28,739 nt of DNA from IMG/VR virus record IMGVR_UViG_2698536397_000009; one strand, given 5' to 3'. Position numbers: made by a program. Within the stretch, counting starts at the first letter, position 1; each line of letters begins with the position of its first letter. Positions 1 through 6,000 of the stretch are shown here, piece after piece. Source of the DNA: a virus. Lineage: Duplodnaviria > Heunggongvirae > Uroviricota > Caudoviricetes.

Positions 1-3000
1 AGTCTCCAGGATTCCCGGGGCGATTCATATCGACCATGAGTTGGCAGTAGCTGGGCAAATTATTCCTGCTACAGATGAGATCACAATGAAATATCCAATC
101 TCGGAGGCGTTTTTTCGCGATATGTTCATCAATCATCCCTTCATCCCGTTTGGGCATGAAGAGTTTTTCATCAAGGGTATGGTTTGCGGTTTCAATGGAG
201 ATTTTATGACGGCATGCCACGTGTTGATTCCCCAGCTCGAAAATAGTCTGAGATATGTGGCTAAAATTAAAGGTGAGGAACCATCGCAGCTTCACGGGGA
301 CGGTTCGCAAGAGCGAAATGGACTCAAGGGATTACTAGATAATCCACTGATTATTGAAGCTTTCGGCGTAGACATAATTGGCAATCTTCAGGCCTTACTG
401 GTAGATAAAATCTATGGTGATTTACGAAATCAACTAGCTCACGGATATGTGCCTGCCGGTTACTACAATCAACCTCCCTGCATTTTTGCATGGTGGCTTG
501 TATTGCACATTCTAATGAACCCTACGGCGAGATACTGGCAAGCCACTTATGGCCAAGAGAGTGAGGCTCAGACTTAAAGTGAATAAGTTTACGAAGTTGG
601 CACTTCCGGATGCATGTCCATATGAGTTGAGGCGATTTGGTTAATAAGGTTGAGTGCTGCTGAAATTATTCGATGTCCGCTTTTGGCACAAAGCGGACAA
701 CCACGCCAGATCTACCCTGTGCCATGAAAAATGAGAATGTCAATTCACTCCTGAACTAATGCTTTTTAATCTAGTAACGTCTAAAATACCTAACATTATC
801 CCTGATAAAATGCCAGTATGCGCTGCATAACTTCACTCATCCGGCACTCGCGACAGATTATGTTTAGGCGACTGTCGTAGCGACGTATTTCTCCATCAGG
901 TAACGACCAGATAACGTCCGGATCAACCACAGCTGTTTTCTTCACCTTTGCCCTCGAGAGTTTTTTGCGGGCGTTTTGCCAGTCCTTACGCGCCTGTTCA
1001 GACGGGAATAACCCGTAGCCGGAGTTGTATACATCGCCACTGGCTACCAGCTCTCTGGCAAGAACGCTCATCAGATATCTAGTCGCACCTGTTTTAGCTT
1101 CCAGTTGCCGTAACGTCTCACGACCGCTCTGGCGCACGAGTTCCACCACCTGCCCTTTAATTTTTTCCCGCTCTTCTTGTGTAAAAACTTTTGCCACAAG
1201 TCCCCCTTAAAATTACCTCATGACCTGAAATCAAAACTTATCCTCTGAAACCAGGCGGAATTTCTGTATCCGGTTCAGAAATATGATTAACACAACGCTG
1301 TACAGGTGAACGCCCCAGGCGGATGACCAGTTCGTCCCATTTTTCGCGGAGCTTTGACGGGCTCATGATGTTTTTTACCCAGAATGGATCCCGCTGTACC
1401 CGACCAAACATTTCACAAATTTGTCTGTGGCTTCTGCCATCCAGCATCCGCATTGTGCGCACATCATTGGCCCAGACAGTCCAGTTAGGCTCTTTTGGTC
1501 GCATGATCTCGCCATCATCACTGGCGGCCTGTTCGTAGAGACCCACGATCCGCCCCCATATCCACTGCGCACACGCCAGATCCTCCTGGCTACCCCACTG
1601 GCGTTTTTTCGCACTAAACACAACTGCGCCAGGGTGCCGGATTAAAAAATCCTGTTCAGCCGTCTGCGGGTCCGGTTGCGAAGCTTCCGGACGAAAAGTG
1701 TTTTTATTCTCTGTAGTAATCTCTGTTGTATTCTCTGTAGGATCATCGGGCCATTTTGACCCGATGACATTGGGTCGTTTTGAACCAATGGAGCGTTTCA
1801 TTTTGACCTCTTCCATCGTGTCATTTTGACCTGATGGAGCGGCGCATTTTGAACCGATGGATTCGCTCAATTTGCCATCATCTAAAAGCTCGCTCCCATA
1901 GTTAATCGTGTAGAAATTGGTCATATCGCGCTTTGATTTATTGAGCTTTTCACAACGCAAAAGCCCCAGCGTTTTCAGACTTGCAAACGCGCGCTTTAAC
2001 GTTGACTCTGACCAGAATGGGAACTGTTCCAACCATTGTTCCGTTGTGTTGTAAATCCAGCGAACACCATCACATTCCATGCCGGAATTGGTATCTCTCA
2101 ACCAATAATGCAACTGCTGCAACACAATGGCTTCATTTAAGCCAATCTTCATCGCAAGCTGTGTGTTTATAACCAGTGGGCGTTCAGCAAAAAGAAGGCT
2201 CATAATTCCATCCAGCTTTTTGTTGGTATTGCTGTCGATACGCAAGTTTGAAAGCAATTGCTTTTTCTATAAGTTCGTCAGTTTCACGATCCACTACGGC
2301 AGGATCAGCAAAAAGCAGTCCGGACTCCACCACATCGCCATATTCTTTGTTTAACCCGGCGATCATGTACGTGATGCTTTTTCCGTCACTAATTTCACGA
2401 TACAACCTGAAATCATTAATCCGGATAGCCTCCATAATTGCAGGCACTAGCGCCGTGAACTTTTCACGCTTATCCCTGGTGTCGATAGCCTTCCAGCGTT
2501 CGAATATCTTCACTCGATTAACGCCAAGCGCTCGCTGATCAACCGCGCCACCTTCATCTGTGACACGCTGAACATCGATGTTCGGGCGCTCTTTCAAAGC
2601 CCAGAATGCTTCAGTGATTAATATCGTCGCCTGCTCCTGTGTCATTCCTGGTCGACATATCCAGGCATCCAGAGCCTCACGAGCCTGTTCAGGAGTGATT
2701 TTCATTGTTCAACCGCCCCGCCCGCTTCGTCTTACGATATTCGTCATAAACCTTGGGATCATACAGAAGCTCCCCGCCAGATGCCTCCTGTAGACGCATC
2801 GCGCGACCTTCAGGAACCAGTATCCCCCAAGCAGCAACACTTGCCAGTCTCACTCCTGCGGCATTGGCAAGCTTTGTTTTGCTGCCAAAAAAAGTAATTG
2901 CGTCAACTTTAAGCATCAAAGCCCCCTCTTGTTAGACTTTTCTAACATTATTGTGCGCGGGATATCTAAGTCAAGAAAAATTAGAATTACCTAACTATGG

Positions 3001-6000
3001 ATACAAGAACCCTAGGCCAGCGAGTTCTGGCGCGACGAAAAGAATTACGCTTAACACAACGAGAAGCTGCGCGCCTCGCTGGAGTTGCTCACGTCACAAT
3101 TTCACAATGGGAAAGAGACGAAACCCAGCCAGTCGGAAAACGATTGTTTGCTTTAGCGGATGCTCTGAAGTGCTCACCTACATGGCTAATGTTTGGTGAC
3201 GAAGACAAGGCACCAGTGCCTGCACAAGAACTTCATGTGGAAACAGAGCTAACTCCCAACCACAAAGAATTGATCGAATTATTCGATGCTCTTCCATCTT
3301 CCGAGCAGGAAGCCTTGCTGTCTGAAATGCGCGCAAGAGTAGAAAACTTCAACAAACTCTTCGAAGAAATGCTTAAAGCGCGTAAAAATAAATCAATAAA
3401 ATAACATTCTTTTCAAGTGATTAGTTGCGCCCACTCTTTTTGTTAGGCTAATCTAACAAAAACACCTGCCTCTCATGTTAGGTTATTCTAAATTACTTTC
3501 CATCAAGACACCGCACGGTGTTCTCAGCAAACAGTTCCGCTACCCCGGCGTTAAGGGGAAATGAGGTCAGCATGGATACTATCGATCTTGGCAACAGCGA
3601 ATCTCTGGTATGTGGCGTGTTCCCCAACCAGGACGGCACGTTCACCGCGATGACGTATACCAAAAGCAAAACGTTTAAAACCGAAAATGGTGCCCGTCGC
3701 TGGCTGGAAAGAAACTCAGGTGAGTGATATGGATTTCGACACAATCATGGAAAAGGCTTACGAAGAATACTTCGAAGGCCTTGCCGAAGGCGAAGAAGCT
3801 CTCAGCTTCAGTGAGTTTAAACAGGCACTCAGAATAAGAATGTGCTCTCACAATGACGCGGAGCACAAATATGAGAAGCAAAATCAGACCGCAGAAAATT
3901 TTGTTCTGGAACCCGGAGAAACGCTTTTCAAAATTCCCGTTACGTGCCCCATTTGCGGTTTTACATCAGAAGAACTTGACGACTCCTGTAACAATCAGGA
4001 AACAACCAAGTATGTCGAAGATGATACCGAGTGCGCACGAAGAACGATTATATCCACGAGTCCAAACTCCAGGGCCAATAAATCTCACTTTGAGAGGATG
4101 ATTAATCCACTCCCCCAAACCAATAAAAAAGATGCCGGAGGACAAAAAACCCAATGGAACAACGGGATATCTGTCAAAAAAAGACGTTCCATTAAAGACA
4201 AACAACGCAGCGCCAACAACTGTAAGCGCTTTATACCAGTAATCAATTTTCATGTTCTTAAGCGGATTTATTGGTGGTTGCGACATTGCTTAATGAATCC
4301 TTAAAACTGTGGTGATTTTAAGGATACCACCTCGCCTGACGTGGTTAAAAGCAGGCACACAACACGAAAGCGCACGGCGAAGTTCGTCTCACTGTACGGT
4401 GTCGTTAAATTTAATTCGACCGTGCGCTTCCGGTTGTGGCAACCCGCAAAATGGCGCGGCGGTAAGTATGGCGGGGTTATTCCTTCCCCGTTGAGGACAC
4501 CGGGTTGTCAGGTTGACCATACGCTTAAGTGACAACCCCGCTGCAACGCCCTCTGTTATCAATTTTCTGGTGACGTTTGGCGGTATCAGTTTTACTCCGT
4601 GACTGCTCTGCCGCCGTTTTTAAAGTGAATTTTGTTATGCGGTGAATGCGGCTAAGCGCACGCGGAACAGTTAAAACCAAAAACAGTGTTATGGGTGGAT
4701 TCTCTGTATCCGACGTTAATTGTTAACTGGTTAACGTCACCTGGAGGCACCAGGCTCTGCATCACAAAATTTATTGTTGAGGACGCGATAATGAAAACGT
4801 TATTACCAAACGTTAATACGTCTGAAGGTTGTTTTGAAATTGGTGTCACTATCAGTAACCCTGTATTTACTGAAGATGCCATTAACAAGAGAAAACAAGA
4901 ACGGGAGCTATTAAATAAAATATGCATTGTTTCAATGCTGGCTCGTTTACGTCTGATGCCAAAAGGATGTGCACAATGAATTCAGCATTTGCGCTTGTTC
5001 TGACAGTTTTTCTTGTTTCCGGAGTGCCAGTTGATATTGCAGTCAGTGTTCACAGGACAATGCAGGAGTGTATGACTGCAGCAACCGAACAGAAAATTCC
5101 CGGTAACTGTTACCCGGTCGATAAAGTTATTAACCAGGATAATATCGAAATCTCGGCAGGTCTTTAAAACAGTTCCGTAATAAATATCCGGTTTCATTCT
5201 TATATGCCAGCAATGGCAGGGATTTGTTCATCCTTAAATCTGTCATGAGGTTAAAACAAAATGAGTAAAGTCTTTATTTGCGCCGCTATTCCTGACGAAC
5301 TGGCAACAAGGGAAGAAGGCGCTGTGGCTGTAGCCACAGCCATTGAAGCTGGCGACGAACGCCGTGCTCGAGCAAAATTTCACTGGCAATTCCTGGAACA
5401 TTATCCGGCTGCTCAGGACTGCGCTTATAAATTTATTGTCTGCGAGGATAAACCTGGCATACCCCGCCCTGCCCTCGATTCATGGGATGCTGAATATATG
5501 CAGGAAAACCGCTGGGATGAGGAGTCTGCTTCTTTTGTCCCGAATGAGACTGAATCCGATCCGATGAACGTCACTTTTGACAAGCTGGCCCCTGAAGTAC
5601 AGAACGCTGTCATGGTTAAGTTCGACACATGTGAAAACATCACCGTTGATATGGTTATTAGCGCACAGGAATTGTTGCAGGAAGACATGGCAACATTCGA
5701 CGGACATATCGTTGAAGCGTTGATGAAAATGCCAGAAGTTAACGCCATGTATCCGGAGCTTAAGTTGCACGCCATTGGGTGGGTTAAGCATAAATGTATT
5801 CCTGGTGCTAAATGGCCCGAAATTCAGGCAGAGATGCGCATCTGGAAAAAACGTCGCGAAGGTGAACGCAAGGAAACCGGAAAATACACGTCTGTTGTTG
5901 ATCTCGCACGCGCCAGAGCCAATCAACAGTACACTGAAAATTCAACAGGAAAAATCAGCCCGGTCATTGCTGCCATTCATCGCGAATACAAGCAGACATG

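What the first reader, a model, noticed from the sequence alone, without database searches (positions are those of the whole stretch)
2920..3495. Three copies of a TGTTAG..CTAACA operator motif flanking the dicA repressor gene
Seen: a perfect inverted repeat TGTTAGA-N4-TCTAACA between dicC and dicA, and TGTTAG-N6-CTAACA plus a degenerate copy between dicA and ydfA. Established: DicA represses the dicB operon. Inference: these are the DicA/DicC operators, and the changed half-site spacing (N4 versus N6) may give differential affinity, as in lambdoid OR/OL sites.
Basis: partly seen in the sequence, partly recalled or inferred. Interest (0 to 1): 0.45.

Follow-up and report, generated by a model that had tools for sequence, protein, structure and literature searches.

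The report
Known DicA operators, variant Qin prophage
The repeated TGTTAG…CTAACA palindromes around the dicA-like repressor gene are real and are the same operator sites already described for the DicA/DicC switch of the E. coli K-12 Qin prophage, here in a different allele of the repressor, so the finding is correct in substance but ordinary.

Summary
The motif is real. Two perfect TGTTAG-N6-CTAACA sites lie at 2930-2947 and 3441-3458, against 0.01 expected by chance. A 2-mismatch copy lies at 3476-3493.

The "N4 versus N6" spacing difference is a parsing artefact. All sites share one 18-bp frame.

The half-sites and their offsets from dicA match E. coli K-12. There, Oc (TTGTTAGTCATAACTAACAA) is a genetically and biochemically supported DicA site, and CTAACA→CTCACA abolishes binding (PMC3441716).

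In nine related loci from Escherichia, Citrobacter, Rahnella and Symbiopectobacterium, plus a K-12-like contig binned to a Collinsella MAG, the half-sites are 89-98% invariant. Spacers (50-65% at the three strong sites) and flanks drift. DicA-like proteins with other recognition helices carry other palindromes at the same position.

Predicted promoters place the first site on the -10/+1 of the dicC promoter. The degenerate site fills the spacer and -10 of the dicB-operon promoter, which explains its degeneracy. The second perfect site sits just upstream of that promoter's -35.

The repressor is 57% identical to K-12 DicA and has a P22 c2-like N-terminal domain. DicF and dicB lie downstream.

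Verdict: an already known lambdoid-type operator set in a non-K-12 allele. Low interest.

The parts
2689..2916 (-). dicC-like gene (Cro analogue, 75 aa from the ATG)
   Evidence: Pfam P22_Cro, E = 2.7e-11. 84% identical to K-12 DicC. ATG at 2916 with a GGGGG Shine-Dalgarno sequence just upstream.
2930..2947 (.). Operator homologous to K-12 Oc: TGTTAG-ACTTTT-CTAACA, perfect half-sites
   Evidence: Same offset from the dicA ATG (-67/-68) and same half-sites as K-12 Oc. K-12 Oc is tied to DicA binding by cloning-escape mutations, an in vivo operator assay and a gel shift (PMC3441716). Half-site columns are 98% identical across 8 distinct sequences, against 60% for the spacer.
2947..2974 (-). Predicted dicC promoter: -35 TTGACT (2974..2969), 16-nt spacer, -10 AATAAT (2952..2947)
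   Evidence: Consensus scan, 10 of 12 matches. AGTCAA is conserved in K-12 and the other loci. In K-12 the dicC start site was mapped and Oc overlaps the -10 (PMC3441716). In the window this is a prediction only.
2954..2971 (.). Weak candidate middle site ('Om' position): TGCGCGGGATATCTAAGT, 5 of 12 mismatches
   Evidence: Read from the sequence. It lies at the same offset (-43) as the K-12 18-mer TGTTAACAAAAACATAGT. Its right half overlaps the dicC -35. It is not distinguishable from chance, and in K-12 DicA did not bind isolated Om (PMC3441716).
2979..2996 (.). Fourth, degenerate copy abutting the dicA ATG ('Oa' position): AATTAG-AATTAC-CTAACT. It contains a possible dicA -10 hexamer, TAGAAT (2982-2987).
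   Evidence: It sits at -18 in all nine loci, with half-sites 97% identical. In loci of other specificity its right half follows the local operator, for example L014 CTAAACA. In K-12 DicA did not bind isolated Oa in vivo (PMC3441716), so its role is uncertain.
2997..3404 (+). dicA-like repressor gene (135 aa)
   Evidence: Pfam HTH_3, E = 1.5e-14. N-terminal 71 residues match the P22 c2 repressor DNA-binding domain (PDB 1adr, 2r1j; E = 1e-18). 57% identical to K-12 DicA, with H32, V33, S36, Q37 and W38 of the recognition helix invariant. Identical protein (WP_000381212.1) in many E. coli, including strain B.
3441..3458 (.). Distal operator of the dicB-operon promoter: TGTTAG-GCTAAT-CTAACA. The palindrome extends to TTTTTGTTAG/CTAACAAAAA (3437-3462).
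   Evidence: It sits +36 to +42 from the last base of the dicA stop codon in all loci, with half-sites 94% identical against 65% for the spacer. Among E. coli genomes with an identical DicA only the spacer varies: GCTAAT, ACTAAT, ACCAAT, ATCAAT.
3466..3494 (+). Predicted dicB-operon promoter (dicBp): -35 CTGCCT (3466-3471), 17-nt spacer, -10 TAAATT (3489-3494)
   Evidence: Placed by alignment with K-12 (TTGACC, 17 nt, TAATCT) and seven other loci that all have TTG at the -35. The consensus scan did not report it, because the window's -35 is poor. Inference only.
3476..3493 (.). Proximal operator of dicBp: TGTTAG-GTTATT-CTAAAT (2 mismatches). It fills the promoter spacer and its right half-site is the -10 hexamer.
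   Evidence: It sits +71 to +77 from the last base of the dicA stop codon in all loci. The left half-site is conserved. The right half always reads CTAA(AT/TC), or TTAACT in Rahnella L015, whose operators use TTAAC half-sites. That is the sequence needed for the -10.
3572..3727 (+). ydfA, first gene of the dicB operon
   Evidence: Pfam DUF1391, E = 8.8e-28. Annotated ydfA in matching E. coli genomes.
4565..4616 (+). DicF small RNA
   Evidence: Rfam RF00039, 72.5 bits against a gathering score of 48.
4791..4979 (+). dicB (62 aa cell-division inhibitor), a controlled target downstream
   Evidence: Intact 62-codon ORF, MKTLLPNVNTSEGCFEIG.... Its identity as DicB rests on my recollection of the K-12 sequence and on its position after DicF. 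It was not compared to a reference here.

Best explanation
The palindromes are the operators of a P22/lambda-like immunity switch carried by a Qin-type prophage.

**Binding (inferred).** A dimer of the 135-aa DicA-like repressor places one helix-turn-helix on each TGTTAG half-site of an 18-bp site. The central bases are not read directly.

**Effect at each site (inferred from predicted promoters).**
- At 2930-2947 the bound repressor covers the -10 edge and the start point of the dicC (cro-like) promoter and shuts it off. As in K-12, this favours dicA transcription.
- At 3441-3458 and 3476-3493 two dimers sit just upstream of the -35 and across the spacer and -10 of the promoter that drives ydfA-dicF-dicB. 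This keeps the toxic division inhibitors silent.
- The proximal site is degenerate because its right half must also serve as the -10 hexamer. It is probably filled with help from, or after, the perfect distal site.
- The weak copy at 2979-2996, on the dicA start, is the OR3-like position. It is a candidate site for DicC, or for DicA at high concentration, to turn dicA down.

**Shown here.** Sequence, statistics, orthology with K-12, and comparative conservation and covariation.

**Shown in K-12 by others.** DicA binds Oc, represses dicC and dicBp, and activates dicA.

**Inferred.** Binding by this allele, promoter positions, order of filling, and the role of DicC.
For: 1. **Non-random and local.** Two perfect sites against 0.01 expected. 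All sites with up to 2 mismatches in 28.7 kb lie in this 565-bp stretch.
2. **Orthology with K-12.** K-12 has TGTTAGTCATAACTAACA at -68. It also has a 3-mismatch site at -18, and 2-mismatch sites 36 and 71 nt past the last base of the dicA stop codon. The window's sites are at -67, -18, +37 and +72.
3. **Experimental support in K-12.** The K-12 -68 site is Oc. It titrates DicA on high-copy plasmids. It confers DicA-dependent repression when transplanted. It loses that with CTAACA→CTCACA (PMC3441716). Reg-Seq also recovered the DicA site at dicC (PMC7567609).
4. **Phylogenetic footprint.** Across nine related loci the half-sites are 0.89-0.98 identical. At the three strong sites spacers are 0.50-0.65 and flanks 0.63-0.73. 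The Oa-like site, which sits on the dicA start, is less discriminating (spacer 0.80, flank 0.86). Among nine sequences (six E. coli genomes, E. ruysiae, E. albertii and the window) encoding the same DicA protein apart from one residue in E. albertii, substitutions hit the spacer, the A-run and the -35. They never hit a half-site.
5. **Covariation.** DicA-like proteins with different helix 2 or helix 3 carry different palindromes at the same offset. Examples are CCTTAGG-N4-CCTAAGA, TATTGAG-N4-CTCAATG, TCATAAC-N4-GTTATTA and TGTTGAG..TAAACA.
6. **Protein fit.** The N-terminal domain is homologous to the P22 c2 DNA-binding domain. That domain binds 18-bp operators through positions 2-7 and 12-17 and leaves the central 4 bp uncontacted (PMC4267663). 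This is the conservation pattern seen here.
7. **Context.** A divergent P22_Cro-family gene, a predicted dicC promoter overlapping the first site, and DicF and dicB downstream.
Against: - No binding data exist for this allele, which is only 57% identical to K-12 DicA.
- The dicB-promoter sites have never been footprinted even in K-12. Reg-Seq's authors call the dicB site low-evidence with unknown location.
- In K-12, DicA did not bind the isolated Om and Oa sequences in vivo (data not shown in PMC3441716). The fourth copy may therefore be mainly promoter and start-codon context.
- The window's dicBp -35 is CTGCCT, and the promoter was not picked up by the consensus scan. Promoter placement rests on alignment.
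- The distance between the two dicBp sites varies from 35 to 37 bp among E. coli genomes. This argues against strictly phased cooperativity.
Confidence: 0.87

Rival explanations
1. The sites are operators whose different affinities come from a change in half-site spacing (N4 versus N6).
For: The first site can be written TGTTAGA-N4-TCTAACA.
Against: The same site is also TGTTAG-N6-CTAACA. Both perfect sites are 18 bp long with half-sites in identical register. So are the degenerate copies and all orthologous sites in nine loci. The extra symmetric pair (A7/T12) is not conserved: spacers are ACTTTT, ATATTC, GTATAT, TCATAA and ATTTAG.
Confidence: 0.02
2. The palindrome downstream of dicA (3437-3462) acts as an RNA hairpin, that is, a transcription terminator or processing site that insulates dicA from the dicB operon, rather than as a protein-binding site.
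For: The arms TTTTTGTTAG/CTAACAAAAA are a perfect 10-bp inverted repeat right after the dicA stop. The fold predicts the hairpin. No other terminator-like site was found between dicA and ydfA. Read-through from dicA into dicB would be harmful.
Against: - The hairpin is A/U-rich. The whole 81-nt stretch folds at -9.9 kcal/mol with z = -1.0, and 26 of 200 shuffles fold as well.
- It is followed by AAAAACACC, not a U run.
- In K-12 the right arm is CATACA, which breaks the stem while keeping the left half-site.
- The same motif recurs where no terminator is needed (2930, 3476).
- A repressor bound here could itself block read-through, which is compatible with the operator reading.
Confidence: 0.04
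3. The sites are read mainly by the Cro-like DicC, or by a host factor, and DicA of this allele has a different specificity from K-12 DicA because of its 43% divergence.
For: - DicC is 84% identical to K-12 DicC while DicA is only 57% identical. Conservation of the operator could therefore track DicC.
- In lambdoid phages Cro uses the same operators.
- K-12 gel shifts showed an additional DicA-independent band on the dicA promoter fragment (PMC3441716).
Against: - Recognition-helix residues H32, V33, S36, Q37 and W38, plus Q21 and R22, are invariant between the two DicA alleles.
- Across the family the palindrome changes when the DicA helix-turn-helix changes.
- In K-12 the effect of Oc depends on dicA.
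- Shared use by DicC is expected and is not exclusive of the main explanation.
Confidence: 0.05
4. Chance recurrence of an A/T-rich hexamer in A/T-rich intergenic DNA.
For: The hexamer TGTTAG itself is not enriched in the window: 9 found against 10.9 expected. Matches with 3 mismatches are at chance level: 13 against 9.8.
Against: Five of the nine hexamers lie within 565 bp, and four of those are paired at exactly 6-bp spacing. Expectation for the paired motif is 0.01. Position and sequence are conserved across genera.
Confidence: 0.01

Closest known systems
DicA/DicC immunity region of the Qin (Kim) cryptic prophage of E. coli K-12: operator Oc and the dicBp operators (Béjar et al. 1986, 1988; Yun et al. 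2012, PMC3441716; Ragunathan et al. 2023, PMC10448788)
   Same: - Same gene order: dicC, then dicA, ydfA, dicF, dicB.
- Same 18-bp operator, TGTTAG-N6-CTAACA.
- Same four positions relative to dicA, within 1 bp.
- Same predicted overlap with the dicC and dicB-operon promoters.
- Same size of repressor (135 aa) without a RecA-cleavable domain.
-.
   Different: - DicA is only 57% identical; the differences lie mostly outside the recognition helix.
- The distal dicBp site is perfect here (CTAACA), whereas K-12 has CATACA.
- The K-12 'Om' sequence (TGTTAAC...) is not recognisable here.
- The dicBp -35 is CTGCCT instead of TTGACC.
- Nothing has been measured for this allele.
Phage P22 c2 repressor and Cro with operators OR1-3 and OL1-3
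   Same: - The DicA N-terminal domain is homologous to the c2 DNA-binding domain (E = 1e-18 to PDB 1adr and 2r1j).
- DicC is in Pfam P22_Cro.
- The operators are 18-bp palindromes with conserved outer positions and a free centre, as in P22, where positions 2-7 and 12-17 are contacted and 8-11 are not (PMC4267663).
   Different: - The half-site sequence differs. From my own knowledge, the P22 consensus is ATTTAAG-type.
- DicA lacks the c2 C-terminal oligomerisation and self-cleavage domain.
- Only two clear sites are seen per control region rather than three adjacent ones.
- The sites are 35-37 and 49-50 bp apart. By my recollection the adjacent operators of the classical lambdoid phages lie much closer together, roughly 20-24 bp centre to centre.
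Phage lambda CI/Cro with OR and OL flanking cI
   Same: - Repressor gene flanked by two operator clusters that control a rightward cro promoter and a leftward-equivalent early promoter.
- Bistable-switch behaviour has been reported for DicA/DicC (PMC10448788).
   Different: - Unrelated operator sequence, 17-bp sites, three sites per cluster.
- CI is RecA-cleavable.
- Long-range OL-OR looping is documented for lambda and untested here.
Gifsy prophage repressors (GfoR/GfhR) controlled by antirepressors
   Same: Short, non-cleavable repressors that are relieved by a prophage-encoded antirepressor. K-12 DicA is relieved by Rem (PMC10448788).
   Different: I did not look for a rem homologue in this window. 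Operator sequences are not comparable.

Membership tests
DicA/DicC (Qin-type) immunity region | Divergent genes for an HTH repressor of about 135 aa related to DicA and a Cro-like DicC | tested here: met
   57% identity to K-12 DicA and 84% to DicC, at equal lengths. Pfam HTH_3 and P22_Cro.
DicA/DicC (Qin-type) immunity region | Operator Oc (TGTTAG-N6-CTAACA) between dicC and dicA, overlapping the dicC promoter -10 | tested here: met
   Perfect site at 2930-2947. The predicted -10 at 2952..2947 shares base 2947 with it. The promoter is predicted, not mapped.
DicA/DicC (Qin-type) immunity region | Operator-like sites at the promoter of the ydfA-dicF-dicB operon, downstream of dicA | tested here: met
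   Sites at 3441-3458 and 3476-3493 align with the K-12 sites at 1447 and 1482 of L001. DicF and dicB are present.
DicA/DicC (Qin-type) immunity region | Physical binding of the repressor to the sites and repression of dicC and dicBp | not testable with these tools
   Only K-12 data exist (PMC3441716; PMC10448788). This allele has not been assayed.
Classical lambdoid OR/OL architecture (lambda, P22, 434) | Three adjacent operators in each control region | tested here: inconclusive
   dicC-dicA region: one perfect site, one 3-mismatch site, and a 5-mismatch candidate between them at 24-25 bp spacing. dicBp: two sites only, 35 bp apart, with no room for a third between them.
Classical lambdoid OR/OL architecture (lambda, P22, 434) | Repressor with a C-terminal RecA-stimulated self-cleavage (S24 peptidase) domain | tested here: not met
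   135 aa with no Peptidase_S24 hit in Pfam; only HTH families match. The same is reported for K-12 DicA (PMC10448788).
P22 c2-type operator recognition | 18-bp twofold-symmetric site with conserved outer positions and an unconstrained centre | tested here: met
   At the three strong sites, half-site columns are 0.89-0.98 identical and spacer columns 0.50-0.65 across related loci. P22 geometry is taken from PMC4267663.
P22 c2-type operator recognition | DNA-binding domain homologous to the c2 N-terminal domain | tested here: met
   phmmer E = 1.3e-18 to 1adr and 3.6e-18 to 2r1j over residues 1-71.

The most novel reading that the evidence does not exclude
DicA alleles that differ at 43% of residues (K-12 type and this E. 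coli B type), together with their relatives in Citrobacter and Rahnella, all read the same TGTTAG half-site (Rahnella pairs it with TTAAC on the right). Qin-like prophages that look heteroimmune by sequence would then form one cross-repressing immunity group. In addition, the operator pairs flanking dicA, 511 bp apart, could be bridged by DicA into a small loop that lets the weak site on the dicA start be filled, as in lambda OL-OR looping. Neither idea has been tested.
Probability: 0.3. Interest if true: 0.35.

Novelty: already known. Interest (0 to 1): 0.14.

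Why it matters
It matters little beyond annotation. The DicA/DicC switch controls the toxic division inhibitors DicB and DicF, and its operator (Oc) is already defined in K-12.

Three modest points are added here:
- The same operator code holds for a widespread second DicA allele, present in at least 450-560 complete E. coli genomes including strain B, and across several enterobacterial genera.
- The dicB-promoter sites, whose location databases still call unknown, can be placed to the base pair by comparative footprinting.
- The degenerate site is explained by its overlap with the -10 hexamer.

These give precise targets for mutagenesis. They do not change the understanding of the system.

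Tried and rejected
- **N4 versus N6 spacing.** Rejected; all copies share the same 18-bp frame.
- **Terminator hairpin at 3437-3462.** Rejected: z = -1.0, no U tract, and the stem is broken in K-12.
- **Extra sites elsewhere in the window.** None with up to 2 mismatches. Hits with 3 mismatches are at chance level.
- **Third site at dicBp.** None found.
- **Middle 'Om' site.** Only a 5-mismatch candidate, not distinguishable from chance.
- **Original operator definitions.** Béjar 1986 (PMC311701) is not held. Béjar 1988 is not in the library. Oc, Om and Oa are therefore known to me only through Yun 2012.
- **Genome-wide DicA motif data (ChIP or SELEX).** A literature search returned nothing useful.
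- **Phage collection.** No deposited phage carries this allele over 80% or more of the 1.2-kb region. The closest are K-12-type or mosaic.
- **Structure prediction of DicA.** Not run. It would not bear on the operator question.

Full report
**What is in the sequence**

- The window carries a Qin-type prophage immunity region.
- A Cro-like gene lies on the minus strand at 2689-2916. It is in Pfam P22_Cro and is 84% identical to K-12 DicC.
- A 135-aa helix-turn-helix repressor gene lies on the plus strand at 2997-3404. It is in Pfam HTH_3 and is 57% identical to K-12 DicA.
- Downstream come ydfA (3572-3727, DUF1391), the DicF RNA (4565-4616) and an intact 62-codon dicB (4791-4979).
- The 1.2-kb region is 100% identical to E. 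coli strain FHI_NMBU_11. It is present over at least 80% of its length in 563 of 5,426 complete E. coli genomes.

**Checking the observation**

- The paired motif is expected 0.01 times in the window and occurs twice.
- With up to two mismatches there are three matches, all in this region, against 0.89 expected.
- The hexamer alone is not enriched. The signal is therefore the pairing and the clustering.
- Correction 1: the "N4" and "N6" sites are one and the same 18-bp frame. TGTTAGA-N4-TCTAACA is TGTTAG-N6-CTAACA with one additional symmetric pair.
- Correction 2: a fourth copy, AATTAGAATTACCTAACT (2979-2996), abuts the dicA ATG. On its own it is at chance level: 13 three-mismatch hits against 9.8 expected.

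**Comparison with K-12**

- I fetched the K-12-type region as L001.
- It has TGTTAGTCATAACTAACA at -68 from the dicA ATG and ATTTAGCATTAGCTAACT at -18.
- It has TGTTAGCTATAGCATACA 36 nt and TGTTAGTCATGGCTAATC 71 nt past the last base of the dicA stop codon.
- The window's sites are at -67, -18, +37 and +72.
- In pairwise alignments of the two intergenic regions the half-sites stand out as conserved islands in diverged DNA.
- The K-12 -68 site is the published operator Oc (5'-TTGTTAGTCATAACTAACAA). Yun et al. reported the following (PMC3441716):
  - The dicA-dicC promoter fragment could be cloned at high copy only with point mutations in Oc.
  - Transplanted Oc gives dicA-dependent repression of a reporter.
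  - CTAACA→CTCACA abolishes that repression.
  - DicA-containing extracts shift the fragment.
  - Oc overlaps the -10 of the mapped dicC promoter.
  - DicA at Oc activates dicA.
  - DicA did not bind two further sequence-predicted sites, Om and Oa, when these were isolated.
- Reg-Seq independently recovered the DicA site at dicC. Its authors note that the DicA site at dicB is low-evidence with unknown location (PMC7567609).
- Ragunathan et al. summarise the lambdoid model and show DicA repression of dicBp, relief by the antirepressor Rem, and DicC-dependent bistability (PMC10448788).

**Comparative evidence**

- A scan of one genome per species found 21 loci encoding DicA relatives.
- Nine sequences carry the motif at all the same offsets. 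These are the window, two K-12-type loci (one is a contig binned to a Collinsella MAG, likely contamination), E. ruysiae, E. albertii, two Citrobacter and Rahnella. Symbiopectobacterium (L010) carries it at the two upstream positions only.
- Over the distinct sequences, column identity is 0.89-0.98 in the half-sites.
- At Oc and the two dicBp sites it is 0.50-0.65 in the 6-bp spacers and 0.63-0.73 in 8-bp flanks. The Oa-like site contrasts less (spacer 0.80, flank 0.86).
- I then compared six E. coli genomes (including strain B), E. ruysiae, E. albertii and the window. All encode exactly the same DicA protein, except for one residue in E. albertii.
  - The variable positions are the spacer of the distal site (GCTAAT, ACTAAT, ACCAAT, ATCAAT), one spacer base of Oc, the length of an A-run, and the -35 of the downstream promoter.
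  - No half-site base changes.
- Relatives with a different helix 2 or recognition helix carry a different palindrome at the same place:
  - CCTTAGG-N4-CCTAAGA in Enterobacter (SQAA instead of TQRE in helix 2).
  - TATTGAG-N4-CTCAATG (recognition helix SGSSISLWES).
  - TCATAAC-N4-GTTATTA (SSVSVFKWEN).
  - TGTTGAG..TAAACA (SYASISLWES).
- This is the signature of repressor-operator co-evolution in interchangeable immunity modules. It identifies the DicA-like protein as the reader of the motif.

**How it most likely works**

- The DicA N-terminal domain is homologous to the P22 c2 DNA-binding domain (E about 1e-18 to PDB 1adr and 2r1j).
- That domain binds an 18-bp symmetric operator through positions 2-7 and 12-17. 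It does not touch the central four base pairs, whose sequence nevertheless tunes affinity (PMC4267663).
- The conservation pattern here fits that geometry. I therefore infer one dimer per 18-bp site.
- The consensus scan finds a minus-strand promoter with -35 TTGACT (2974..2969) and -10 AATAAT (2952..2947).
  - The site at 2930-2947 spans the -10 edge and the expected start point of dicC. This is classic steric repression, as in K-12.
- For the downstream promoter I rely on alignment.
  - In K-12 it reads TTGACC, 17 nt, TAATCT. In the window it reads CTGCCT (3466-3471), 17 nt, TAAATT (3489-3494).
  - The proximal site (3476-3493) fills the spacer, and its right half-site is the -10 hexamer.
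  - This explains why that half is CTAAAT or CTAATC in most loci. It is "degenerate" by constraint, not by decay.
  - The distal site ends 7 bp upstream of the -35.
- Differential affinity is thus plausible: perfect Oc and distal site, weaker proximal site, very weak site on the dicA start.
  - It arises from half-site mismatches and possibly from central-base composition, not from spacing.
- The 35-37-bp variation in distance between the two dicBp sites argues against strict phasing.
- The fourth copy contains a good -10-like hexamer, TAGAAT (2982-2987), 10 nt before an ATG that has no Shine-Dalgarno sequence.
  - It may be both the dicA promoter, giving a near-leaderless mRNA as for lambda cI from PRM, and an OR3-like autoregulatory or DicC site.
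  - Its right half follows the local specificity in other loci, which favours a real, weak operator.
  - The K-12 negative result for isolated Oa keeps this open.

**Rivals**

- Chance is excluded for the three strong sites.
- A terminator role for the 3437-3462 palindrome is unlikely. The fold is weak (z = -1.0), there is no U run, and the stem is broken in K-12.
- Reading mainly by DicC or a host factor is not excluded as an additional use. The covariation with the DicA helix-turn-helix and the K-12 genetics point to DicA.

**Novelty and verdict**

- The motif, its positions and its role are those already published for K-12 Qin.
- The window shows them in a second, common DicA allele.
- I rate it already known, low interest.
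- The useful residue is a base-pair placement of the dicB-promoter operators by comparative footprinting, and the correction of the spacing idea.

Noticed in passing
window 3466-3471 (and the A-run at 3459-3462): The -35 of the predicted dicB-operon promoter reads CTGCCT. Every other related locus has TTG (TTGCCT, TTGACC, TTGCTA, TTGCCA). The window also has one A fewer in the preceding A-run. Only 3 of 450 E. coli genomes match this 76-bp stretch at 99% or more. Strain ECCHD184 (L024) has a different -35 change, TCGCCT. These may be independent promoter-down variants that attenuate the toxic dicB operon.
   Followed up: partly
window 3505-3571: The ydfA 5' leader is almost 100% identical between this allele and K-12, although the operator region just upstream has diverged. 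It contains the inverted repeats ACACCG-CA-CGGTGT (3506-3519) and CCCC-GGCGTTAA-GGGG (3544-3559). Citrobacter loci have CCCTG-GCGATA-CAGGG at the same place, and Symbiopectobacterium has CACCCC..CGGGTG. This may be a conserved RNA hairpin with compensatory changes (nut/boxB-like or an RNase III site).
   Followed up: no
L006, L009, L011-L014, L016-L019: DicA-like repressors form a family of interchangeable specificities. The palindrome at -65 to -68 changes with helix 2 or helix 3. Loci with Q21-R22 have TG at operator positions 1-2. The Enterobacter protein with Q21-A22 has CC there despite an identical recognition helix. This hints that Arg22 reads G2.
   Followed up: partly
window 2982-2999: dicA has no Shine-Dalgarno sequence. 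A TAGAAT hexamer lies 10 nt before the ATG, so the dicA mRNA may be nearly leaderless. The block TTTAGAATT is conserved even in loci with other operator specificities.
   Followed up: no
L025 (E. coli strain B, NZ_CP115178.1): E. coli B encodes exactly the same DicA protein (WP_000381212.1) as the window, not the K-12 protein. B/BL21 derivatives would be a ready host for testing this allele.
   Followed up: partly
window 23381-23555 and 20054-20142: Rfam hits to the sok antitoxin RNA (111.5 bits) and to sRNA-Xcc1 (71 bits), far from the immunity region.
   Followed up: no
window 2184-2705 (minus strand): The gene next to dicC is a YdaT_toxin-family protein of 173 aa (Pfam E = 1.2e-5). In K-12 this position holds the truncated pseudogene ydfX. 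The window's early-right region is therefore more intact than in K-12.
   Followed up: no
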